Counted from the first letter of the stretch, positions 37,209 to 46,034 are shown. The stretch is 64,000 nt of DNA from an uncultured Gemmatimonadales bacterium (GCA_963779755.1 CAVZZO010000003.1:1746633-1810632); one strand, 5' to 3'. Notes: generated from the sequence alone by a model not told the origin. Numbers and translations: made by a program.

Positions 37209-39971
37209 CTATTTACCGCCCACCAGCCGCTCGAATCGTGGGTTACCCCTGAGCGGCGCAAACGTCGGGTCGATCCGCAGCCAGCCGGGCGAGAGATAGT
37301 ACGGCATCTTGAGCAGCGGCTCCAGCAGGTCCAGCGCCTTTTCCGGTTCACCCACGAGCAAGTAGATGCGAACCAGCTGGTGCTGGTTGTAGGTGCCGCC
37401 AAACGCTTCCTGACTGGGCGGCGAAAGCGCGAGTCCGCGTTTGCCTTCGGCGATCGCCTCCGCCTTCCGGCCGAGATAGGCCAGCGCCAGTCCCAGGAAC
37501 ATGTGTCGCTGGGCATTGTCCGGCGTTGCCTGCAGCTGCTCCACGAAGGCCTGCCGGGCAGAGTCGGCGTAGATCCTGGCCTTCCCGAGGTTCCCCCGGA
37601 CATACTCGGTCTCGGCCCGGACGATGCCCCAGGTGGCCCGGTCGTTGTCAAAGGCGCTCGGGGACAGAGTGAGGAGTTGCTGCTGCTGGGCATCGTCCAG
37701 CACCCAGTAGAGATCCCAGAAGTTGCCGAAGACGACGAGCAGAGAGGCAGAATCGGTGGTGGTCAGGGCCGAGCGCACTATCTCCCGGGCACCGGGAAGG
37801 TCGCCCTGGGCCAGGTCCAACATCGCCCGGTTCTCGATGACCGCCAGGTTGGCCGGGGCAAGCGCAAGAGCCCGATCCATCCAGGACCTGGCCTCGTCGT
37901 AGCGGCGCAGCCAGAGCAGCGTAAACCCGGTACGCCGTACCGTGACGGCCGAGCGCGGGTCGAGGGTTCCTGCCCTGATGAAGTGCTCCCGCGCCGATTC
38001 CCAGCGACCCAGACTCTGCTCCGCCAATGCCGCGCTTCCCAGCAAATCCACATTCGCGGGCGCCAGCTTGAGCCCAGCCTCAAATGCCTGGAGGGCGCGC
38101 CGGCTGTCGCCCGACACGAAGGCATAGTAGCTCCCGAGCGCCAGTTGTCCCTCAGGACGGGCGGGCCCGAGCTGCTGCGCCCGCTCGGCCGCGTTCCGGG
38201 CTTGCTCCGCCAGCGCCGGCAGGGGCGTGCTGTTGGTGTAGAGGAGCGATCTTGCCCGGGCCAGTTGAGCCCAGGCCGGAACGAACGACGGGTCGAGGTT
38301 CACCGCCTGCTCGTAGGAGGCAATCGCTCGCCGCAGGCTCGGCACATCGCTGGCCGACATGGCCTGTGAAGCCGCTTCACCTTTGAGGAACGCATCGTAG
38401 GCGGCGAGATTCGCCGTGGGCTTGGCCGCCAGCTCCTCCCGCACGCTGTCGCCCAGCGCCACATTGAGCGCACTTGCTACCCGGCCGGCGATGTCGGCCT
38501 GCACCTGAAACACGTCGGTGAGCGAGGCGTCGAATGCCTGTTGCCACTTGGTGGTGGGCGTCGCCCCCGGCTCGACCTGCACCAGTTCCGGACTCACCCG
38601 CACCCGGCTCGGACCATCGGCCGGCTTCTCCCAACGCACCGTCGCGGTCAGAAGGTACTCCGCGCCCAGCTCCCGTGCGATATCCTGGGGGGACTTGCCG
38701 CTATGCCGGTATTCGTTGGAGCTGGCCCGCGCGATCACGGCCAGACCAGCGAGCTGAGAAAGCTTCCCCCGCACCTCGTCGGTGATCCCGTCGGCAAAGT
38801 AGGCGTCGGCCGAATCGCCCATATTATCGAAAGGCAGCACGGCGATCCGCTTCGGCCCCAGCGCGCTGCTCGAGCCGCCCCGGCTGCTGCGCCAGGCGAA
38901 GAGCACGCCCACGCCAATCAGAAAGCCGAGCAGGAGCAGCATCGCCGCGGTGGGCAGGCGTCGCTGTCGGCCCTGGCCTGGTGCGGAGACCGGCACGGGA
39001 GCGGCGGCCTTCGGGACCGTGCCGGCGGGGAGCCGGAGTGCGCGGGCCAACTCCCCGGCGCTGGCAAACCGGTCGGCGGGAAGCGTCGCCAGCGCCCGCT
39101 GAATCGCCTGATCCACCGCCTCGGGCACGCTGGCGCGCAAGCTGTGCACGCTCGGCGCCTCCTCGGTCAACCGCCGGGCGATGATCGCCTGGACGGTGGG
39201 GCCGCTGAACGGCGGCTCGCCCACCAGCATTTCATAGAGCACACAGCCCAGGGAGTAGATATCGGTCCGGACATCCAGCGCATGCTCGCCGCTCGCCTGC
39301 TCCGGGCTCATGTAGGCCGGGGTGCCGATGCTGATGCCCGTTTCGGTCAGCCGCTCTCCACCCGCCACCGCCCGGGCAATCCCGAAATCGGCCACCAGAG
39401 TGGATCCGTCCCGGGTGAGCAGGAGGTTCTCCGGCTTGATATCCCGATGTACCACCCCGTGCTCGTGGGCGTACTGCAGCCCCTGGGCCGCCTCCCGGGT
39501 GATCCGCAGGGCTTCCTCCACGGAAAGCTGACGCTCCCGGTGCAGCCGGTCCCGCAGCGATTCACCCTCCACGAACGGCATGGTGAACCAGAGATAGCCT
39601 GCCGTCTCCCCCGAATCGTGAACCGCAAGGATATGGGGGTGCTGCAGCCGGGCGGCCAGCCGGATCTCCTGCTGGAACCGCTCGGGCCCCAGGGTGGCGG
39701 CGAGCTCGGGGTGCAGGACCTTGAGGGCGACCGGGCGGTCATGCTTCAGGTCGTGGGCGAGATAGACCGTGGCCATCCCCCCGCGCCCAAGCTCACGCTC
39801 GAGGCGGTAACGGTCGCGAAGACCCTCGGCCAGTGCCGCAGGTAGCTCGTTCAAGGGGAAGAGGTGGAGATGACTGGAATATGCACGCAGCCCATGGCCC
39901 GCCGCCACTTTGGGCTGGACAGCGGCAGGCGGGGGAACACCCGGTTCGTAGCCGCCTGGCCCGCCGGCCAC
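37209..39971 (-). CDS. Ser/Thr protein kinase with TM, TolB-N-like domain and TPR repeats
   Basis: 920 aa, GTG start. GRGGMATVYLAHD, HRDIKPENLLL, DFGIARA, IAVLPFDNMG...FADGITDEV, TPR-like C-terminus. Confidence 0.85.
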   Translation of the reverse strand: MAGGPGGYEPGVPPPAAVQPKVAAGHGLRAYSSHLHLFPLNELPAALAEGLRDRYRLERELGRGGMATVYLAHDLKHDRPVALKVLHPELAATLGPERFQQEIRLAARLQHPHILAVHDSGETAGYLWFTMPFVEGESLRDRLHRERQLSVEEALRITREAAQGLQYAHEHGVVHRDIKPENLLLTRDGSTLVADFGIARAVAGGERLTETGISIGTPAYMSPEQASGEHALDVRTDIYSLGCVLYEMLVGEPPFSGPTVQAIIARRLTEEAPSVHSLRASVPEAVDQAIQRALATLPADRFASAGELARALRLPAGTVPKAAAPVPVSAPGQGRQRRLPTAAMLLLLGFLIGVGVLFAWRSSRGGSSSALGPKRIAVLPFDNMGDSADAYFADGITDEVRGKLSQLAGLAVIARASSNEYRHSGKSPQDIARELGAEYLLTATVRWEKPADGPSRVRVSPELVQVEPGATPTTKWQQAFDASLTDVFQVQADIAGRVASALNVALGDSVREELAAKPTANLAAYDAFLKGEAASQAMSASDVPSLRRAIASYEQAVNLDPSFVPAWAQLARARSLLYTNSTPLPALAEQARNAAERAQQLGPARPEGQLALGSYYAFVSGDSRRALQAFEAGLKLAPANVDLLGSAALAEQSLGRWESAREHFIRAGTLDPRSAVTVRRTGFTLLWLRRYDEARSWMDRALALAPANLAVIENRAMLDLAQGDLPGAREIVRSALTTTDSASLLVVFGNFWDLYWVLDDAQQQQLLTLSPSAFDNDRATWGIVRAETEYVRGNLGKARIYADSARQAFVEQLQATPDNAQRHMFLGLALAYLGRKAEAIAEGKRGLALSPPSQEAFGGTYNQHQLVRIYLLVGEPEKALDLLEPLLKMPYYLSPGWLRIDPTFAPLRGNPRFERLVGGK

Positions 39972-40086: not shown

Positions 40087-43069
40087 CTACCAGCTCTTGT
40101 CCGCGCACGCCACCTTCACGCCGGCCGGCTGCTGCCCCGCCAGCGTGGTGCAGGACCCCCACCCGATCACCTTCCAGTCGTCGTAGTTCCGGTAAGGCAG
40201 ATCGGCGATGCCGTCGGCATGGGGGCGCACCGTCACCTGGTACAGCGAGTTGGGATGATCGCCCGCGTTGGGAATGGCATAGGATTGGGCGGCGCGCAAC
40301 GCGACCTCGCCCGGTTGGAGCAGATCCACCCCGAAGGCAAAAGACCAGATGTTGTCGAACCACGAATCGAGCCCGATGCGCAGGGTACCCGCGGCGTCCA
40401 CATAGGACATCTCCATGCGTACCGGATCGGGATTGCTCGCGCCCTCCACCGGATCCGCGTAGCGGATATAGAGGATGTAGAGCCGTCCGTAGGTCGAGGG
40501 CACTGCGGTGGAGAGGGGTGAGGCAAGCACAGCCGGGCTCACGGGGCGCGGCCGGTCCGCCGCCCGGTGCGCCGAGTCTGGGGGTGCGGCAGCCGGCCGT
40601 CCGGCGCCTGGGGCGACGGCGAGATCGCCAGTCGACGAAAGCGTGTTGCCCGGAGCCGCGCCCACCCAGGCCAGCGCCGGCCTGCCGGTGGCGCCCCACA
40701 TGGGGCCGTAGGGAATGCCGAGGCGCGCCCACCCGTGCGCCGGCAGCTGGCCCGGCGCGTAGAGCTGGACGTACCGGTTGGTGTCGATCACCGCTGCCAC
40801 CAGATGCTCCCGCCCGGCCGCCAGCCCGATGGGAAGCCAGGTGAACGCCAGGGCGGGCGAGGCGGTGGGCGACATTACCAGCGGCTGCCCGCCCACCGTC
40901 ATGGTCTGCTCGGCCTGGAAGGTGGCGGGCGAGCGGTAGCGATAGCGCACCACGTTGTCCTGACCCCGATAGGCCAGCACCACGGTCTTGCCGTCCGCCG
41001 AGACGGCAAGCGACGGCTCGCCCGCGGCCGGAGCGGCGGGAATGGAGTCCACCGCTCCCCAGACGAAGAGCCCGCCCTGTTCCTCCACCCAGGTTTCGAA
41101 GAGCGATCCGTTGGGCCGGATGCCCACGATGAGAATGAGCGGGCGGTTGTTCACCCGGATGGTGGCGGCATCCACCGCGGTCATCGCACCCAGGTCGCGC
41201 ACGCCGGGCGTCACGAAGGAAAGGTTGGGGCAATCGTCCACTGCATTGCAGGTATAGGGGGTGGGCGTGTAGCTGAACGCCAGCTTGCCGGCCAGCGTCA
41301 CCGAGAATACCCAGAGATGGTCCCGGAACCGCACCAGCGCCGGGCCGGCCTGGCTCAGCATCCCCACCTGCGTCTCGCCTTCGCGGGTGAATTCGCAGCC
41401 GCCGCCGTTCCCCGGCTGCAGGTTGGCGTAGGCCCGCACCGTAGCGCCGGCCGGCGCGAATTGGTTGTCGCGGTTCCAGTCCACGCTCCCGGTGGCCGAG
41501 TCCACCTTGTAGTAATATTGCTGCACCAGGGTACGGAGCAGCCCGCCGTAGGCGGCGTCGATCGCGCCGGTCTCCGTCAGGGCATGGTTGTTGAGGGTGG
41601 GGAACTTGCTGCCGTCCGAGAACTGCCACAGTCCCGAATTGAGGTAGGCGTAGTTCATCAGGCTGGGGTAGTTCGGCTTGCAGTTGGGCTCGTGCAGGCC
41701 GTTGGGCCCGTTGTGATCGAGGCCCAGCGTGTGGCCGAACTCGTGCGCCGAATTGCCGGCGTTCGCCATGTTGAACCCGCAGGCGATGCCGTAGCCGCAG
41801 GAGCCGCCGCCGGTGGTGTAACCCAGCACATAGTGGAACATGCCCCAGCGCCCGGGGCTCATCTCCCGGGGCCAGGCGCCGCCCGGCGTCTGCGGCTGGT
41901 AGTTCCCCTGGGCATCGGGCACCGCGTCAACCGCGGTATATCCGCCCCAGTCGCCGTAGATCGTGGCATCGGCCGGCGTGAGCGGCGGCACGCCGGTATC
42001 GAGGTGCAGGCTCACCCCGGGCCGGCGGTCGGGGTTGTTGACGCTGAGGGAGTGTACCACCTGGAGCAGCGGATCGGTGGTGGCGGTATCGGCGTAGATC
42101 CCGGCCATCTGCCGAGCCACCATGGGGCTCATGTGCTCCGCCACGCCGTTGATGCTGTCTGCCTGGGTCAGGCGGCGGAAATCCACCTCGGCGAAGATGT
42201 CCTTGTGCCGGGGATCGGCGCCCCAGGCGGGGAGCGCTACGTCTTCGTGAACCCGGGCCCCGGCGGGATTGGTGTATACGGTATCCCGGCCCAGGACCTC
42301 CCAGCCGTCCCACAGGCCGTCGCCGTCGGTGTCGCGCGGATCGGGGATATCCCTGCACTCCACCCCGGCCACCGAGCCGCTGGTCGAGCCGCAGGTACCC
42401 AGGGCAAACTCGAGTGCGTCCCCCAGGCCGTCGCCGTCGCTGTCGTGGCCGGCGTCGTTGCGGTAGACCGTGATGGGCGCGTCGGCGGCCGGGAGGCGGG
42501 TTCCGTACACCAGTTGCACGTTCCGGCCCTGGGGGAGGGGCAGCCGAGTCGTGCGGCCGGCCGCGCGGGAGAGAATGTCCAGCCCATCCGCGCTGGTCAG
42601 GTATGCCAGGTGGCTGGGCGACCCGTTGGGCGGCTCGATGCCCCGCGCCTCCTCGCCCGACGCGATGCCGGTCAGGGCGATCACCGCGCCGGAGGAGAAG
42701 GGCAGCGCGGCCTGGATCCGCCGGCCGTCCAACCAGACGTCGCCGGTCTGCACCGCGTCCGGCGTGCGCGAGCGCACCACGATGGTCACCGTCCCGGTGG
42801 TGCTTCCGGGGAAGGAAACGCTCAGTTGCCCGTTGCTCGCGACGCCGCGCGCCAGTTGCGCGCCGGAACCGGCCAGAGGAGTTGAGCACCGGATCGGCCG
42901 CCGCGGTGAAGTTGCGCAACTCCACCAGGTGCTGCCCGGACTTCGCATGGAGGGTTGGCCATACTTCGCCCACGGGCGGAAGGGGCGAGACATTGAAGAT
43001 CCTCGTCTGGGCCGCCAGCGGCGACACGGCGGCGGCCAGCAGGAGAAGAAGCGGAAACGTGCGCGGCAT
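40087..43069 (-). CDS. secreted metzincin-type zinc metalloprotease with thrombospondin-type-3-like Ca-binding repeats and a large C-terminal beta-rich domain; one frameshift near 42865
   Basis: HEFGHTLGLDH plus Met-turn SLMNY. DSDGDGLGD and DTDGDGLWDGWE repeats. The signal peptide MPRTFPLLLLLAAAVSPLAAQ (ATG 43069) lies in a different frame from the main ORF 40087-42993. Confidence 0.7.
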
Positions 43070-43272
43070 GACTTCTCCCGGGCAGGCGGTGTTGTTCGCG
43101 GCAGGAAAGCCGATCCAACTGGGAAGAGTGGCTCTAATCTTCAATCGGAAACGGGGGGCGCAAGGGGCCAGGGAATGTGACCGTCGCATTTCCCGGCCGG
43201 AGGCCTGCGAGCCGGTTGCTCCCCGGTTGAAATAGATGTCGTGCGCCGCTGCCTGTTCGGGGAGGCGCATCT

Positions 43273-45318
43273 CTACCGTGCCGTTTCCTTTCCGGCCTGC
43301 CGCGCCGCCCGCCATTCGTCCCGGGCGAGACGTTTCACGTCAATCCCGTGCTTCAGTTTCAGCGTGGCCTCGGTCATGAACAGGGCGGCGTCCACTCCCG
43401 TCTCCACCGCCAGGTAGTCGTCGATCCATTGCTGGCGTTCGGGGTACTCGGCGGTCAGGATCACGTTGAGCAACGCGACCTGCAGGAACCCGATCTGGGT
43501 GGAGGTCGGCGGGTACTCGGTGACCGCCCGATCCAGGTAGAGCCCCCGGCGCCTGGCCATCCGCAGTTCCGACCGGCGGATCATGAGGTCGTCCCGGCTG
43601 TCGTCGTCCGCCTCGCAGGGGAGCGGATCCGGATTCGGAGCCGGATCGGGCAGCGAGAGCGGCGCGTCGCTGCGGGGGGCTGTGAGCGGCAGCAGCTTCA
43701 GGAAATCCGCGGCGGCCTGATCCCGGTCGGTGAGATGCCCGATCCCACACAGGGTCTCCACCGTTTTCAGCATGGAGGTGTGATCGTAGGTGGTGTGGTC
43801 GATCACGCCCCGGCGGGTATAGGGCGAGATCACCAGGGCGGGCACGCGGACGCCGAGCTGGTCGAACTGGAAGCCGAACTGCGAGTAGGCCGCCGTCTCC
43901 AGGTCGCCCGGGGGCACCGCCGGCCCCGGCGGGGCATGATCGAAAAACCCTCCGTGCTCATCGAAGGTGACCAGCAGGAGGCTGTGCTCCCAGTGCGGCG
44001 AATTGCGGATCGCCTCGTAGACGTCCTTGATGAGGCGCTCGCCCCGGGTCACATCGTCCAGCGGGTGCATCGAGTTGCCGCAGGCAAAGTCGCCCGGGCC
44101 GGTGACGTCGAACTTGTGGGCCCCGTACTTCGGCTCGATAAAGACGAACTTGTAGCCGAAGGCCTCCGACTGGACCTCGGACGCGAAATCCTCGAAGTCC
44201 TTGAAGCGCCCCTGGAGCCGGTTCAGGTTCATGCCCTTCATGGCGAAACTGACCGGGAAATCGTCCCCCTCATAGATCCGCCAGGGAATGCAGTTGGCGT
44301 CCAGCAGGTCGAAGATGTTGCCGTTTTCGAACCGGTACCCTTCCACCGTGGTGGAGGTCACCACGTCCCACTTGTCCGGACTCCCGTCCAGGCCGCCCGA
44401 GGTGCCTGCCAGCAGAAAGAAGCGGTTGGGCCAGGTGGGCCCGGGCAGCGAGGAGAACCACTGGTCGCACACCGCGAACTCCCGGGCCAGGCGGTTGAGC
44501 ACCGGCAGCTGCTCGGGGGAGAAGCAGCGCATGATCCGTTCGGGGGTGGGCGATCCGTTGTCCCGGTAGTTGGCGATGAACCCGGAGTTGTTCACCGGAG
44601 GATACCCGCCAGGCACCGGGTTGTAGACGGCCCCCTCCCCGCACAGCGCCACCACCGTCTCCTTGAACTCGTGGCCCGGATCCTTGTCCACCCCTTTCAG
44701 CTGAAAATCGGCCGGGCTGCTGACCAGCACCGGCAGCCCCGTGATGGGGTTGATGTTGCTGGTGGCGAGCGGGTCGAACCCGGGGTTGAATACGGTGGGA
44801 TTGCCGTCGGGATCCACTCCGGCGATGCCGCTGAAGCCCAGCATGTGATCGAAGCTCCGGTTCTCCAGCATCAGGACAAAGACGTGCTCGATGCGCGGCG
44901 GCCTCCCTTTCCCCCGTCCGAAGAGCGACCCGATCGCGCGGATCAGTCCGAGCAGGGCGCACCGCAGCGTGTCCCACGCCACGCAGACCAGCTGCAGCGC
45001 CCACGAGAAGACGACGCAGAACGCCTTCACCACCCAGGCGAAGGCCTTGCAGACCCACTTCGCCACCCAGTACCAGGCCTTGCACACCCACTTGGCCACC
45101 CAGTAGTACGCCCGGCAGAAGAACCCGGCGATACAGTTCCACGGCGTGTACCAGTGGCACTTCTCCCAGGACGTACAGTGACTCGACCCCTCGTCGGCCC
45201 ATTCCGAGCACTGATTCGACCCTTCGTCGGCCCAGCTGGTGCACTCGTAATCGACCTGCGAACTCCAGTTCTTGCAGGTAATGACGAAGGTGTCGACCCA
45301 TTTGGTGCAGGTGGCCAT
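43273..45318 (-). CDS. phosphoesterase-family protein (phospholipase C / acid phosphatase AcpA family) with a novel Cys/Trp-rich N-terminal module
   Basis: 681 aa. VLMLENRSFDHMLG and TFDEHGGFFDH motifs. ATG 45318 is preceded by GGAAGGAGAG. N-terminal residues 1-120 are described in the findings. Confidence 0.8.
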   Translation of the reverse strand: MATCTKWVDTFVITCKNWSSQVDYECTSWADEGSNQCSEWADEGSSHCTSWEKCHWYTPWNCIAGFFCRAYYWVAKWVCKAWYWVAKWVCKAFAWVVKAFCVVFSWALQLVCVAWDTLRCALLGLIRAIGSLFGRGKGRPPRIEHVFVLMLENRSFDHMLGFSGIAGVDPDGNPTVFNPGFDPLATSNINPITGLPVLVSSPADFQLKGVDKDPGHEFKETVVALCGEGAVYNPVPGGYPPVNNSGFIANYRDNGSPTPERIMRCFSPEQLPVLNRLAREFAVCDQWFSSLPGPTWPNRFFLLAGTSGGLDGSPDKWDVVTSTTVEGYRFENGNIFDLLDANCIPWRIYEGDDFPVSFAMKGMNLNRLQGRFKDFEDFASEVQSEAFGYKFVFIEPKYGAHKFDVTGPGDFACGNSMHPLDDVTRGERLIKDVYEAIRNSPHWEHSLLLVTFDEHGGFFDHAPPGPAVPPGDLETAAYSQFGFQFDQLGVRVPALVISPYTRRGVIDHTTYDHTSMLKTVETLCGIGHLTDRDQAAADFLKLLPLTAPRSDAPLSLPDPAPNPDPLPCEADDDSRDDLMIRRSELRMARRRGLYLDRAVTEYPPTSTQIGFLQVALLNVILTAEYPERQQWIDDYLAVETGVDAALFMTEATLKLKHGIDVKRLARDEWRAARQAGKETAR

Positions 45319-45321
45319 GGG

Positions 45322-45666
45322 CTACTCTCCTTCCGGAGCGAATCGGAGACGCAGGCGGCGATAGAGCAGGGCCAGGCGAAGGCGGGCAAGCGCGATCCCG
45401 GTCAGCTTGCCGGCGATGCCGGCGCCGAAGATCAGGGCCAGGCCGCGCAGCAGGACGCCGGCGAGATGGGCGGTAGGGAACCCGCGCAGCATCAGCGTGA
45501 ATACGCAGAAGCCCAGAGCCGCTGCCAGGAAGACGCCGCCCATCCGGCAGCCGCATTCGGTGCGATAGGCTTCCGCGCGCCGGACGTAGGGCAACAGGCG
45601 GTGCCGCTCGTCCGGAAGGGAACGGAGCAGACGGTCGAGGACGGGCTCGCCGCGCCGGGCCGTCAC
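45322..45666 (-). CDS. small membrane protein, unknown
   Basis: 114 aa with 2-3 hydrophobic segments. GTG 45666 overlaps the upstream stop (GTGA). The stop lies 3 nt before the phosphoesterase ATG. Confidence 0.55.
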   Translation of the reverse strand: MTARRGEPVLDRLLRSLPDERHRLLPYVRRAEAYRTECGCRMGGVFLAAALGFCVFTLMLRGFPTAHLAGVLLRGLALIFGAGIAGKLTGIALARLRLALLYRRLRLRFAPEGE

Positions 45667-46034
45667 GGATAGACCGGGAGGCCGGGTGAGACGATACCGA
45701 GGTGCGCCACCCGCGCCAGCAGTTCCGCCGCCTGGCTGGCCACCGGTGTATCGACGAGGCCCTCCGTGCTCCCGAACTCCAGCAGCTCCCGCAACCCGGC
45801 AAAATTCCGTGCGGCCGCATGCCGGCGCAGGCCCATCGCGAACAGCAGGCCGGCGAGACTGTCGCGCTCCCTGTCGGTGACCGACTCCATCTCGGTGCGC
45901 CAGTGCGCCGATTTCCCGTCCCCATCCAGCCGCCAGGGGCGCATATTGAAATCGCTGACGAAGATCATCGCGTGGGTGAAGGCGTAGAAATCATCGCTTC
46001 CGCCGTTCAGCCGATCCATGGGCCGGCACAGCAC
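45663..46034 (-). CDS. hypothetical protein (start uncertain; possibly the 3' part of a disrupted larger gene)
   Basis: The 123-aa ORF contains ...DDFYAFTHAMIFVSDFN... No family recognised. Upstream ORFs in other frames suggest disruption. Confidence 0.4.
   Translation of the reverse strand: MLCRPMDRLNGGSDDFYAFTHAMIFVSDFNMRPWRLDGDGKSAHWRTEMESVTDRERDSLAGLLFAMGLRRHAAARNFAGLRELLEFGSTEGLVDTPVASQAAELLARVAHLGIVSPGLPVYP

What the first reader, a model, noticed from the sequence alone, without database searches (positions are those of the whole stretch)
43273..45318. Phosphoesterase (PLC/AcpA family) with an N-terminal 11-residue-periodic Cys-x-x-Trp ladder
The body of this 681-aa protein has phosphoesterase-family hallmarks (VLMLENRSFDHMLG, TFDEHGGFFDH). 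The first ~120 aa have no signal peptide and instead hold 14 Cys and 15 Trp in a strict hendecad register. Cys sits at 4, 15, 26, 37, 48 and again at 79, 90, 101, 112. Each is followed at +3 by Trp or Phe (CTKW, CKNW, CTSW, CSEW, CTSW ... VCKAW, VCKAF, FCVVF, VCVAW). The first block is acidic/polar (CTSWADEGSNQ CSEWADEGSSH). The second block is hydrophobic with regularly spaced Lys (YWVAKWVCKAW repeated) and is encoded by 33-bp tandem DNA repeats (~45005-45105). An 11-residue period (3 helical turns) would stack all Cys and Trp on one helical face. I do not recognise this module. It could be a membrane-insertion, metal- or lipid-binding, or acylation device that delivers a lipid phosphoesterase.
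Basis: partly seen in the sequence, partly recalled or inferred. Interest (0 to 1): 0.8.

Follow-up and report, generated by a model that had tools for sequence, protein, structure and literature searches.

The report
Cysteine-ladder helical hairpin with membrane partner
The odd N-terminus of this bacterial phospholipase C is real: it is an undescribed, widespread protein module, a long two-helix hairpin with one cysteine per 11-residue repeat, and it always comes with its own small membrane protein and is attached to many different enzymes.

Summary
In detail: 681-aa ORF, PF04185 body, 13 Cys (not 14) and 15 Trp in the first 120 residues, 33-bp DNA repeats.

Every Cys i faces Cys 116-i. The two blocks are therefore the arms of one antiparallel alpha-helical hairpin: an acidic arm and a Trp/Lys-rich hydrophobic arm.

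Main evidence:
- Arm repeat numbers match in 272 of 323 distinct modules, from 3/3 to 12/12.
- AlphaFold2 predicts helices 3-46 and 59-133.
- Amphipathicity peaks at 98 degrees, the 11/3 period.

The module has no match in Pfam, NCBIfam, PDB, PADLOC or PHROGs. It occurs in at least seven bacterial phyla. It is fused N-terminally, C-terminally or internally to phospholipases, lipases, proteases, glycosidases and oxidases, almost never with a signal peptide.

A 2-TM, ~115-aa protein with an invariant ECGC motif is encoded right next to the ladder-coding end of the gene (72 of 80 loci; here 45322-45666).

Best reading: a cross-linked Janus rod that holds enzymes at a membrane surface together with its partner. 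Cellular side, thiol state and partner role are inferred, not shown.

The parts
43273..45318 (-). Gene for the 681-aa ladder-PLC protein (stop codon included)
   Evidence: ORF list. An identical protein is on record (P0024). A gene is called on an independent contig (L002).
44920..45318 (-). Cys-ladder hairpin module, residues 1-133
   Evidence: AF2 helices 3-46 and 59-133. Palindromic Cys spacing. A profile of this region finds 223 clusters among 1.84e9 representative proteins. No Pfam or NCBIfam hit.
45175..45312 (-). Arm 1, residues 3-48. It is polar/acidic, with Cys at hendecad position a (4, 15, 26, 37, 48), Trp at d, and Ala/Gly at e/h in the two loop-proximal WADEGS repeats
   Evidence: Hendecad table, hydrophobic moment maximal at 98 degrees, Wimley-White interfacial dG +8.3 kcal/mol.
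45118..45174 (-). Hairpin tip, residues 49-67 (TSWEKCHWYTPWNCIAGFF), with the inner Cys pair 54/62. This is the most conserved stretch of the module
   Evidence: Invariant W51, C54, W56, P59, W60, C62, A64, G65, F66, F67 in alignment A1. Non-helical at 47-58 in AF2.
44980..45117 (-). Arm 2, residues 68-113. It is Trp/Val/Lys-rich and hydrophobic, with Cys at 68, 79, 90, 101, 112
   Evidence: Moment maximal at 98 degrees, interfacial dG -15.6 kcal/mol, Kyte-Doolittle 19-residue maximum 2.09 centred on residue 105.
45016..45105 (-). 33-bp tandem DNA repeat encoding the YWVAKWVCKAW units of arm 2
   Evidence: Tandem Repeats Finder. Units are 25-26/33 identical.
44920..44979 (-). Amphipathic helix that continues arm 2 past the end of arm 1, residues 114-133. 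It carries the unpaired Cys120
   Evidence: AF2 shows one continuous helix 59-133. C120 is present in 171 of 172 PLC-type ladder proteins.
44893..44919 (-). Basic Gly/Pro linker, residues 134-142 (GRGKGRPPR)
   Evidence: pLDDT below 50 at 135-137. Variable in the alignment.
43744..44892 (-). PF04185 phosphoesterase domain (NPC-type phospholipase C), residues 143-525
   Evidence: Pfam E 1.1e-69. phmmer against NPC4 8hav gives 2.5e-51. Foldseek against 8haw gives 8e-27. E152, N153, T295, D453, E454, H455 are invariant.
43276..43743 (-). C-terminal helical domain, residues 526-681. It holds the invariant Cys568
   Evidence: AF2 helices 575-680. C568 is invariant in 172 of 172.
45322..45666 (-). 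Partner gene: a 114-aa protein with two predicted TM helices, an invariant ECGC motif and a GK..G..AR.RL motif
   Evidence: 39% identical to the gene upstream of the Paraburkholderia homologue. Found next to the ladder-coding end in 72 of 80 loci, and downstream when the ladder is C-terminal. No hit in any family library.
45547..45555 (-). Codons of the invariant Cys-Gly-Cys of the partner (residues 38-40), at the start of the first hydrophobic segment
   Evidence: Alignments. Coordinates.
45325..45334 (-). Shine-Dalgarno-like GGAAGGAGAG inside the last codons of the partner gene. The partner stop is at 45322-45324 and the PLC ATG at 45316-45318, leaving a 3-nt gap
   Evidence: Sequence read directly. 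This suggests co-transcription and coupled translation, which is an inference.

Best explanation
Residues 1-133 are a self-contained domain: a long antiparallel alpha-helical hairpin built from 11-residue (hendecad) repeats.

Anatomy. Each repeat puts one Cys at core position a and an aromatic residue at d. The Cys of the two arms lie in register (i + j = 116). This gives five rungs plus one inner pair at the tip.

Cross-links. I infer that the rungs are covalent or near-covalent, most likely disulfides shielded by the flanking Trp.

Janus rod. Arm 1 is acidic and polar. Arm 2 is Trp/Val-rich with a narrow Lys stripe. The rod therefore has one water-facing side and one lipid-interface-facing side.

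Likely role. I propose that it lies on, or partly in, a membrane surface and works with the small 2-TM ECGC protein encoded immediately upstream. Together they would hold the attached enzyme at the membrane. In this gene the enzyme is an NPC-type phospholipase C, whose substrates are membrane phospholipids.

Shown:
- the periodicity and its conservation;
- equal repeat numbers in the two arms;
- helical prediction and 11/3 amphipathicity;
- portability of the module between enzyme families;
- strict gene adjacency of the partner.

Inferred:
- rung cross-linking;
- membrane binding;
- which side of the membrane;
- what the partner does (receptor/anchor, or a CXC thiol oxidase that closes the rungs).
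For: Hairpin geometry:
- The Cys spacing is palindromic, so every Cys i has a partner at 116-i.
- The number of 11-spaced Cys in arm 1 equals that in arm 2 in 272 of 323 distinct modules (r = 0.78). Counts run 3/3, 4/4, 5/5, 6/6, 7/7, 8/8 and 12/12, across at least six loop types, and loops always add an even number of Cys.
- AF2 gives helix 3-46, turn, helix 59-133, with pLDDT 70-90.
- The module model aligns best, though not significantly, with long antiparallel helical hairpins: chemoreceptor 3g67 (TMq 0.52), Vipp1, the colicin E3 R-domain and FliJ.
- Pairing arm segments in antiparallel order gives 40.0 bits of summed mutual information, against 15.5 +/- 0.24 for within-protein shuffles.

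Amphipathic character:
- The hydrophobic moment of both arms peaks at 98 degrees, with none at beta periodicity.
- Interfacial dG is +8.3 kcal/mol for arm 1 and -15.6 kcal/mol for arm 2.

Portable domain:
- 223 clusters match at E<=1e-3.
- Placement among parsed clusters is 64 N-terminal, 32 C-terminal and 10 internal.
- Fusion partners are PF04185, patatin, Lipase_3, GDSL, GDPD, S8, M12, M64, GH1, GH16, glyoxal/galactose-oxidase-like and FAD oxidase. Five of these act on lipids or phosphodiesters.

Membrane link:
- The 2-TM partner is adjacent in 72 of 80 loci, including non-PLC fusions. It lies downstream when the ladder is C-terminal.
- No other neighbouring gene is conserved.
- Several architectures place TM-like segments directly beside the ladder.

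Precedents:
- A membrane protein with a CGC active site that makes disulfides: MauE, preprint 10.64898/2026.03.05.709764.
- Plant NPC4, the closest solved relative of the body, is plasma-membrane associated through S-acylation. I know this from the literature; the paper that describes it was listed but not read.
Against: - No coordinates were available, so Cys-Cys distances in the models could not be measured.
- Mutual information does not fix the register. Restricted to loop-proximal repeats, the true pairing (28.4 bits) is no better than a shift of one rung (27.4 and 29.2).
- About 16% of modules have unequal arm counts. Some of these are fragments or have 10- or 12-residue spacings.
- Almost all ladder proteins lack a signal peptide: 40 of 42 C-terminal or internal types by a crude hydropathy test, and all N-terminal types inspected.
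- The positive-inside rule puts the partner's CGC at the cytoplasmic face, though weakly.
- The ladder-TM-Pro/Thr-rich protein in L080 also suggests a cytoplasmic ladder.
- Disulfides are not expected in the cytoplasm.
- Many fused enzymes (GH16, subtilase, M64, glyoxal oxidase) are of kinds that usually act outside the cell. A cytoplasmic-face anchor does not explain that.
- The partner has only two predicted TM helices and no detectable relation to MauE, DsbB or VKOR.
Confidence: 0.5

Rival explanations
1. Export or delivery device. The ladder hairpin is a non-classical secretion or targeting signal for enzymes that lack a signal peptide. These would be exoenzymes or inter-bacterial or anti-eukaryotic toxins. 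The small 2-TM partner is its dedicated translocator, or a holin-like release factor. The rungs become disulfides once outside the cell.
For: - The fused enzymes are mostly of kinds that act outside the cell or on other cells' envelopes: phospholipases, lipases, subtilase, M12/M64 peptidases, GH16, glyoxal oxidase.
- Nearly all lack a Sec-type signal.
- The partner resembles a class II holin in size, in having two TM segments and in its Arg-rich C-tail.
- A constant module with variable enzymatic heads is the pattern of polymorphic toxins (my own knowledge).
- The PLC body has invariant Cys (C413, C568) that cytosolic NPC4 lacks. This hints at an oxidising destination.
Against: - The partner has no PHROGs or Pfam holin match.
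- No secretion-system, immunity or peptidoglycan-hydrolase gene is conserved nearby.
- The family spans monoderm and diderm phyla that share no specialised secretion system.
- The invariant ECGC and GK motifs are not holin features.
- GH1 and FAD oxidases are usually intracellular.
Confidence: 0.2
2. Thiol-based metal site or redox switch. The paired Cys stay reduced in the cytoplasm. They either bind soft metal ions two-coordinately (Cu(I), Hg(II), Ag(I)), or close into disulfides only under oxidative conditions. That would change the rod's shape or membrane affinity and so switch the enzyme.
For: - The rung Cys are absolutely conserved, where packing alone would allow Ala, Ser or Gly.
- A cytoplasmic location is suggested by the lack of signal peptides and by the partner's likely topology.
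- Each rung offers exactly two thiols.
- The partner's CGC could exchange with them. CXC chemistry is described.
Against: - No His, Asp or Met ligands are conserved around the rungs.
- Rungs are about 16 A apart, so they cannot form clusters.
- No metal-homeostasis or redox-regulator genes are conserved nearby.
- This does not explain the extreme Trp content or the matching acidic and hydrophobic arms.
Confidence: 0.12
3. Soluble oligomerisation stalk. Several hairpins bundle through their hydrophobic arm 2, with the acidic arm 1 on the outside, as in a trimer-of-hairpins. This makes a rigid multi-headed enzyme of set length. The partner only nucleates or caps the bundle at the membrane.
For: - A two-helix hairpin cannot bury the exposed Trp/Val face of arm 2 on its own.
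- Hendecad repeats are typical of straight helical bundles (my own knowledge).
- Rod length varies from 3 to 12 rungs, like a spacer.
Against: - The enzyme is attached at the open end of the hairpin, next to the most hydrophobic stretch, not at the tip.
- Strict linkage to an integral membrane protein, and TM-like segments beside the ladder, point to a membrane.
- No oligomer prediction could be run.
Confidence: 0.1
4. S-acylation platform. The Cys ladder is a multi-site lipidation array, self-acylated or helped by the partner, that fixes the enzyme to the membrane.
For: - There are many conserved cytoplasm-side Cys next to hydrophobic sequence.
- Plant NPC4 uses S-acylation for membrane association, and bacterial gasdermins are palmitoylated on an N-terminal Cys (my own knowledge).
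Against: - The strict pairing of Cys across the two arms, the equal arm counts and the even Cys parity in loops are not needed for acylation.
- The Cys sit at buried core positions of the hairpin.
- No acyltransferase is conserved nearby.
Confidence: 0.05

Closest known systems
Plant and fungal non-specific phospholipase C (NPC4, PDB 8hav/8haw; RePLC 8k3g), Pfam PF04185
   Same: Residues 137-562 align with NPC4 (phmmer E 2.5e-51). The predicted fold matches 8haw at E 8e-27. The ENRSFDH, PGPTxPNR and DEHGG motifs are kept. Like NPC4, the protein has no secretion signal, and its substrate is expected to be membrane lipid.
   Different: NPC4 has no N-terminal ladder. It reaches the membrane by C-terminal S-acylation (my own knowledge). 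The bacterial body carries invariant Cys413 and Cys568 that NPC4 lacks, and a different helical C-terminal domain.
Bacterial PlcH/PlcN phospholipases C and AcpA acid phosphatase (TIGR03396, TIGR03397)
   Same: Same Pfam superfamily, with partial HMM matches. Structural matches to 9gy2, 9gye and 2d1g at E 1e-12 to 1e-15.
   Different: Scores are far below the family cut-offs: 120 against 580 and 90 against 363. The N-terminus (MATCTKW...) shows no Tat or Sec signal, and Pfam finds no domain other than PF04185. The protein is closer to the eukaryotic NPC type.
CHCH domain (twin Cx9C) proteins and their oxidase Mia40 (CPC motif) in mitochondria
   Same: Both are a helix-turn-helix hairpin whose antiparallel helices carry Cys about three turns apart on the facing sides. 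The candidate partner is a membrane-anchored protein with a Cys-X-Cys motif. This is a resemblance of principle only (my own knowledge, plus for CXC chemistry).
   Different: The spacing is Cx10C, not Cx9C. There are 4 to 13 or more rungs instead of 2. The composition is Trp-rich and hendecad-repeat based. The setting is bacterial. There is no sequence similarity, and Pfam finds no CHCH or Mia40 hit. Disulfides are not demonstrated here.
11-residue-repeat amphipathic lipid-surface helices (apolipoproteins, perilipins, alpha-synuclein)
   Same: Both have 11/3 periodicity that keeps a straight hydrophobic face. Both place Lys at the polar/non-polar boundary. Both have strongly favourable interfacial partitioning.
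   Different: Those are single, Cys-free helices that fold on binding. Here the acidic half of the polar face comes from a second helix tied on by a Cys ladder. There is no sequence similarity.
MauE/DsbB/VKOR membrane thiol oxidases (compared with the partner protein)
   Same: The partner is an integral membrane protein with a conserved CGC next to a TM helix, and with a conserved Glu and Lys. The MauE preprint shows a CGC active site that makes disulfides.
   Different: The partner has two predicted TM helices, not four. It has no Pfam or NCBIfam match. Its CGC probably faces the cytoplasm rather than the periplasm. No activity is known.

Membership tests
Pfam PF04185 phosphoesterase (NPC-type phospholipase C) | Profile match above the gathering score over the whole domain | tested here: met
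   235.8 bits against a cut-off of 23, covering profile positions 1-354 of 356.
Pfam PF04185 phosphoesterase (NPC-type phospholipase C) | Conserved active-site motifs: ENRSFDH, Thr in PGPTxPNR, DEHGG | tested here: met
   E152, N153, R154, D157, H158, T295, P297, N298, R299, D453, E454, H455, G456 and G457 are invariant in 65 homologues. They align with NPC4. Their assignment to catalytic roles comes from my own knowledge of the family.
Pfam PF04185 phosphoesterase (NPC-type phospholipase C) | Fold of a solved member | tested here: met
   Foldseek gives 8haw E 8e-27 (TMt 0.72) and 8hav TMt 0.79.
Pfam PF04185 phosphoesterase (NPC-type phospholipase C) | Phospholipase C or phosphatase activity, and substrate range | not testable with these tools
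   Needs an enzyme assay.
TIGR03396 phosphocholine-specific PLC (PlcH/PlcN type) | Score above the equivalog cut-off and full-length architecture | tested here: not met
   120.4 bits against a cut-off of 580.25. Only profile positions 42-248 of 688 are matched in the best stretch.
TIGR03397 AcpA-type acid phosphatase | Score above the subfamily cut-off | tested here: not met
   89.6 bits against a cut-off of 362.75.
CHCH / twin Cx9C helical hairpin | Two Cx9C motifs on antiparallel helices | tested here: not met
   The spacing is Cx10C (11-residue period), with five per arm. No Pfam hit.
CHCH / twin Cx9C helical hairpin | Inter-helix disulfides | not testable with these tools
Needs thiol-state chemistry or a structure.
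11-mer amphipathic lipid-binding repeat proteins | 11/3 periodic amphipathic helix | tested here: met
   Moment maximal at 98 degrees for both arms. This shows how the module may work. It is not homology.
11-mer amphipathic lipid-binding repeat proteins | Sequence relationship to apolipoprotein, perilipin or synuclein families | tested here: not met
   No Pfam hit at E<=1 for residues 1-144.
MauE/DsbB/VKOR thiol oxidases (partner protein) | Redox-active Cys pair beside the membrane | tested here: inconclusive
   An invariant CGC is present, but redox activity is unknown.
MauE/DsbB/VKOR thiol oxidases (partner protein) | Four-helix TM bundle and family profile match | tested here: not met
   About 44 residues lie between CGC and GK, enough for two TM helices. 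No Pfam or NCBIfam hit.
Phage-type class II holins (partner protein) | Family profile match | tested here: not met
   No PHROGs hit below E 0.06. Only the size, two TM segments and a basic tail resemble holins.
Known anti-phage defence systems | Match to a PADLOC model | tested here: not met
   No hit for the PLC, the partner or the upstream ORF at E<=0.1.

The most novel reading that the evidence does not exclude
The ladder domain and its ECGC partner form a new self-contained two-gene system.

In this reading, a minimal membrane-embedded Cys-X-Cys thiol oxidase or isomerase zips a multi-disulfide helical rod. This would be a bacterial counterpart of the Mia40/twin-Cx9C relay. It might act on the cytoplasmic face of the membrane, where disulfides are not expected.

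Alternatively, or in addition, the pair carries signal-less hydrolases and oxidases to or across the membrane by a route that uses none of the known secretion systems.
Probability: 0.22. Interest if true: 0.92.

Novelty: categorically new. Interest (0 to 1): 0.82.

Why it matters
The enzyme body is an ordinary new member of the NPC/PF04185 phospholipases. The ladder module and its partner are not described in any resource searched: Pfam-A 2025, NCBIfam 2026, PADLOC, PHROGs, PDB sequences and folds, or 8 million papers.

They are nevertheless common in soil bacteria. They occur in at least seven phyla and are attached to a dozen enzyme families.

If the reading is right, this is a general way in which bacteria place signal-less enzymes at a membrane. 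Phospholipases, lipases, proteases, glycosidases and oxidases are among the enzymes concerned.

It would also be an unusual protein design: a rod whose length is set in 11-residue steps that must be added to both arms together.

It also gives a testable candidate for a minimal CXC membrane oxidoreductase.

For annotation, it would explain why hundreds of 'alkaline phosphatase family' or 'phospholipase C' proteins have an unexplained Cys/Trp-rich end and an unannotated small gene beside them.

Tried and rejected
- Wrong start codon or spurious N-terminus: rejected. The same start and ladder are kept in more than 170 homologues.
- Known domain: rejected. No hit in Pfam, NCBIfam, PADLOC or PHROGs. 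In the PDB sequence search only the PF04185 body matched. Foldseek on the module alone found nothing below E 0.5.
- Beta-hairpin or beta-solenoid (antifreeze-like 11-12-residue coils): rejected. There is no amphipathic signal near 170 degrees, and AF2 gives helices.
- Simple signal-anchor or TM-hairpin topology: not supported. Only residues 96-114 pass a TM hydropathy threshold, basic residues flank it on both sides, and the N-terminal 20 residues are not TM-like. It is not fully excluded.
- Rung-level covariation to prove exact register: inconclusive. The strong signal against shuffles (40.0 against 15.5 bits) mostly reflects the gradient from the loop-proximal to the distal end, and a shift of one rung scores equally among repeat-type rungs.
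- Finding the disulfide partner of the odd Cys120 by co-loss of Cys in 172 PLCs: inconclusive. The Cys are too conserved, and the only strong correlation (C112/C343, phi 0.93) probably reflects a single clade.
- A third conserved gene (Dsb-like, transporter, immunity): none within 3 kb in 80 loci.
- Literature on the motif strings, Cx10C hairpins or cysteine ladders: nothing relevant.
- The first homologue search with the N-terminus alone returned only short fragments, many with frameshift-like tails. The full-length search showed that intact proteins are abundant, so this reflects how that search collects candidates.
Full report
**1. The observation**

The ORF at 43273..45318 on the minus strand encodes 681 aa from an ATG. 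Pfam places a complete PF04185 phosphoesterase domain at residues 143-525 (E 1.1e-69). The NCBIfam models for PlcH-type PLC and AcpA match only partly and far below their cut-offs. Residues 1-144 match nothing in Pfam or NCBIfam, even at E<=1.

Cys lie at 4, 15, 26, 37, 48, 54, 62, 68, 79, 90, 101, 112 and 120. That makes 13 Cys, not 14, with 15 Trp. The 33-bp tandem repeat is at 45016-45105. The window has 68% G+C. The closest copies of the module are in Gemmatimonadales MAGs, so the window is probably from Gemmatimonadota. That is an inference.

**2.

The gaps between successive Cys are 11,11,11,11,6,8,6,11,11,11,11 (then 8). Every Cys i therefore has a mate at 116-i, around a turn at Tyr57-Thr58-Pro59. 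That is the signature of an antiparallel hairpin with its Cys in register.

I tested this on relatives:
- The 120 best full-length homologues (60-80% identical, all 617-750 aa with PF04185) keep the N-terminus. Arm counts are 5/5, 6/6, 7/7 or 8/8 in all but a handful.
- A scan of 185,579 species-representative genomes gave 80 loci, with counts from 4/4 to 8/8.
- A profile search of 1.84 billion representative proteins gave 223 clusters, with counts from 3/3 to 12/12 and at least six loop types. Each loop type adds an even number of Cys.
- Over 323 distinct modules, the two arms have the same number of 11-spaced Cys in 272 (r = 0.78).

Repeats must therefore be gained or lost in both arms together. 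That is hard to explain unless the arms pair.

**3. Structure**

AlphaFold2 on the full protein (65-sequence alignment, mean pLDDT 77.5) gives helix 3-46, a non-helical tip and one long helix 59-133. The phosphoesterase body and a helical C-terminal domain follow. The module alone gives the same result, with pLDDT 83-90 over the rungs.

Foldseek finds no significant PDB match for the module. The best, non-significant alignments are to long antiparallel helical hairpins: chemoreceptor signalling domains, Vipp1/PspA, the colicin E3 receptor-binding hairpin and FliJ. This tells me the model is a hairpin.

The hydrophobic moment of both arms is maximal at 98 degrees, exactly 360 x 3/11, and negligible at beta periodicity. 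With Cys as hendecad position a:
- Arm 1 reads C-x-x-W-A-D-E-G-S-x-x, so the a, d, e, h core is C, W, A, G.
- Arm 2 reads C-K-A-W-Y-W-V-A-K-W-V, so the core is C, W, Y, A.

The outer face of arm 1 is acidic and polar. The outer face of arm 2 is Trp/Val with a narrow Lys stripe. Wimley-White interfacial energies are +8.3 kcal/mol for arm 1 and -15.6 kcal/mol for arm 2.

The rod is thus two-faced. Trp next to each Cys is what one expects for residues packing on a disulfide, as in immunoglobulin domains (my own knowledge).

**4. A covariation test, and its limit**

Pairing arm-1 and arm-2 inter-Cys segments in antiparallel order gives 40.0 bits of summed mutual information. Within-protein shuffles give 15.5 +/- 0.24 bits, shifted pairings 23-28 bits, and parallel pairing 24 bits.

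When only the repeat-type segments near the loop are used, the true pairing is no better than a one-rung shift. The test therefore supports antiparallel co-linearity but does not prove the exact register. The register rests on the palindromic spacing and the equal counts.

**5. The module is portable**

Among cluster representatives, 64 carry it at the N-terminus, 32 at the C-terminus and 10 internally. The attached domains include:
- lipid and phosphodiester enzymes: PF04185, patatin, class-3 and GDSL lipases, GDPD;
- peptidases: subtilase S8, M12, M64;
- glycosidases: GH1, GH16;
- oxidases: Kelch/glyoxal-oxidase/galactose-oxidase-like domains, FAD-binding/ALO oxidase.

Some proteins are just ladder plus TM-like segments. 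Of 42 proteins with a C-terminal or internal ladder, 40 have no signal-peptide-like N-terminus by a crude hydropathy test. The N-terminal type starts directly with the ladder.

**6. A dedicated partner**

The 114-aa ORF at 45322..45666 (-) ends 3 nt before the PLC start codon. It contains a GGAAGGAGAG Shine-Dalgarno-like sequence in its last codons. It is 39% identical to the gene in the same position in Paraburkholderia caballeronis.

A profile of it finds a homologue directly upstream of the ladder gene in 72 of 80 loci, including Kelch-type and other non-PLC fusions. Where the ladder is C-terminal, the partner lies immediately downstream. This held in two of the three such loci fetched with enough flanking DNA (L087 and L089; L092 has none). 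An internal-ladder locus has one directly upstream and two more copies nearby. The partner thus follows the ladder-coding end of the gene, not the enzyme. No other neighbour is conserved.

The partner has an invariant E-C-G-C at the start of a hydrophobic segment. About 44 mostly apolar residues follow, then G-K-x-x-G-x-x-x-A-R-x-R-L and a basic tail. I read this as two TM helices with both ends, and the CGC, on the cytoplasmic side. The charge bias behind that reading is modest. The partner has no match in Pfam, NCBIfam, PADLOC or PHROGs, and sources call it hypothetical.

A 2026 preprint shows that MauE, a four-TM protein with a CGC active site, can replace DsbB. A membrane CXC oxidase is therefore a real precedent, although the partner is not detectably related to MauE.

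**7. The enzyme**

The body aligns with Arabidopsis NPC4 over residues 137-562 (E 2.5e-51). The predicted fold matches NPC4 and a fungal NPC best. The metal-binding and nucleophile motifs are invariant.

Cys413 and Cys568 are invariant in all 172 PLC-type ladder proteins, and Cys120 is present in 171. NPC4 lacks Cys413; Cys568 and Cys120 lie outside the aligned region. This could mean extra disulfides, but I could not test it.

**8. Interpretation**

Firmly established:
- a new, widespread hendecad hairpin domain with in-register Cys;
- its fusion to many enzyme families;
- its genetic coupling to a small membrane protein.

The most economical mechanism is a cross-linked Janus rod that sits at a membrane interface with its partner and keeps the enzyme there. 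For a phospholipase C this makes sense, and five of the fused families act on lipids or phosphodiesters.

One tension remains unresolved. The chemistry (invariant, paired, Trp-shielded Cys with even parity) argues for disulfides. The lack of signal peptides, the partner's likely topology and the ladder-TM-Pro/Thr-rich protein in L080 argue for a cytoplasmic location.

Three readings would resolve it:
- the partner oxidises the ladder;
- the pair is an export route and the ladder is oxidised outside;
- the Cys are thiol or metal sites.

I rank these in the rival explanations and the novel case. None is shown.

**9. Novelty**

The PLC body is a new member of a known family. For the ladder domain plus partner I found no described counterpart in any library or in the literature searches.

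The nearest analogies are of principle only. They are twin-Cx9C CHCH hairpins with Mia40, 11-mer amphipathic lipid-binding helices, and MauE-type CXC oxidases. Each fails at least one defining feature when tested.

Noticed in passing
window 42860-43070 (-), upstream end of the 968-aa ORF 40087..42993: The downstream neighbour is a large HEFGH zinc-metalloprotease-like protein with a weak bacterial TSP3-repeat match (Pfam, below cut-off). It appears split by a frameshift. A good signal peptide (MPRTFPLLLLLAAAVSPLAAQ, from nt 43069) and about 65 plausible residues lie in another frame (ORF 41927..43315). They run out near 42872, where the long ORF's plausible sequence begins (about 42861). This is either a sequencing error or a pseudogene.
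   Followed up: partly
window 45663-46034 (-): A 123-aa ORF overlaps the partner gene's start by 4 nt, so this genome has a three-gene operon. It has only a weak, partial DUF6895 match (E 0.004, profile positions 154-193 of 289). It is not present at the other loci examined.
   Followed up: partly
L091 2263-2601 (+): A 112-aa ORF between two ladder/partner cassettes ends in an extraordinary Trp/Cys/Pro-rich tail (FIWWPWRPLWCWWWHLRWPWYRCCPYWWYRCHWWAA). The same 8.5-kb locus holds three partner homologues and two ladder enzymes, a PLC and a glyoxal-oxidase-like protein.
   Followed up: no
L004 8203-9651 (+); L003 13904-14076 (-): In one Chloroflexia MAG a 'Gasdermin_protease' (PF27061) gene directly follows the ladder-PLC. 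In an actinomycete MAG a gp25-like baseplate gene lies about 6 kb away. Neither association recurs in other loci.
   Followed up: partly
proteins P0003, P0004, P0008, P0009, P0010, P0022: Several database copies of the ladder-PLC are cut short soon after the ladder and end in frameshift-like tails. An example is ...VFVLMLKTVRSITCLVF in place of ...VFVLMLENRSFDHMLGF. Two of them lie on contigs of 68 and 103 kb. They may be assembly errors or real pseudogenes.
   Followed up: no
window 43615-43617 (Cys568) and 44080-44082 (Cys413), (-): Two Cys of the PLC body are invariant in all 172 ladder-PLCs. Cys413 sits in an insertion (GPGDFACGNSMHP) absent from NPC4, and Cys568 lies just past the end of the NPC4 alignment. 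They may form a domain-linking disulfide or a metal site.
   Followed up: partly
window 37209-39971 (-): A 920-aa Ser/Thr protein kinase with a long TPR array lies two genes downstream. There is no evident link to the finding.
   Followed up: no
ladder modules of P0142, P0199, P0214, P0259: A second 'flavour' of the repeat exists. Arm 1 is CxxxEDQGYxE, with no Trp. Arm 2 is CVAWTWVSNIV, uncharged and TM-like by hydropathy. In P0142 four such arm-1 repeats face four such arm-2 repeats, and the next rung switches flavour in both arms.
   Followed up: partly
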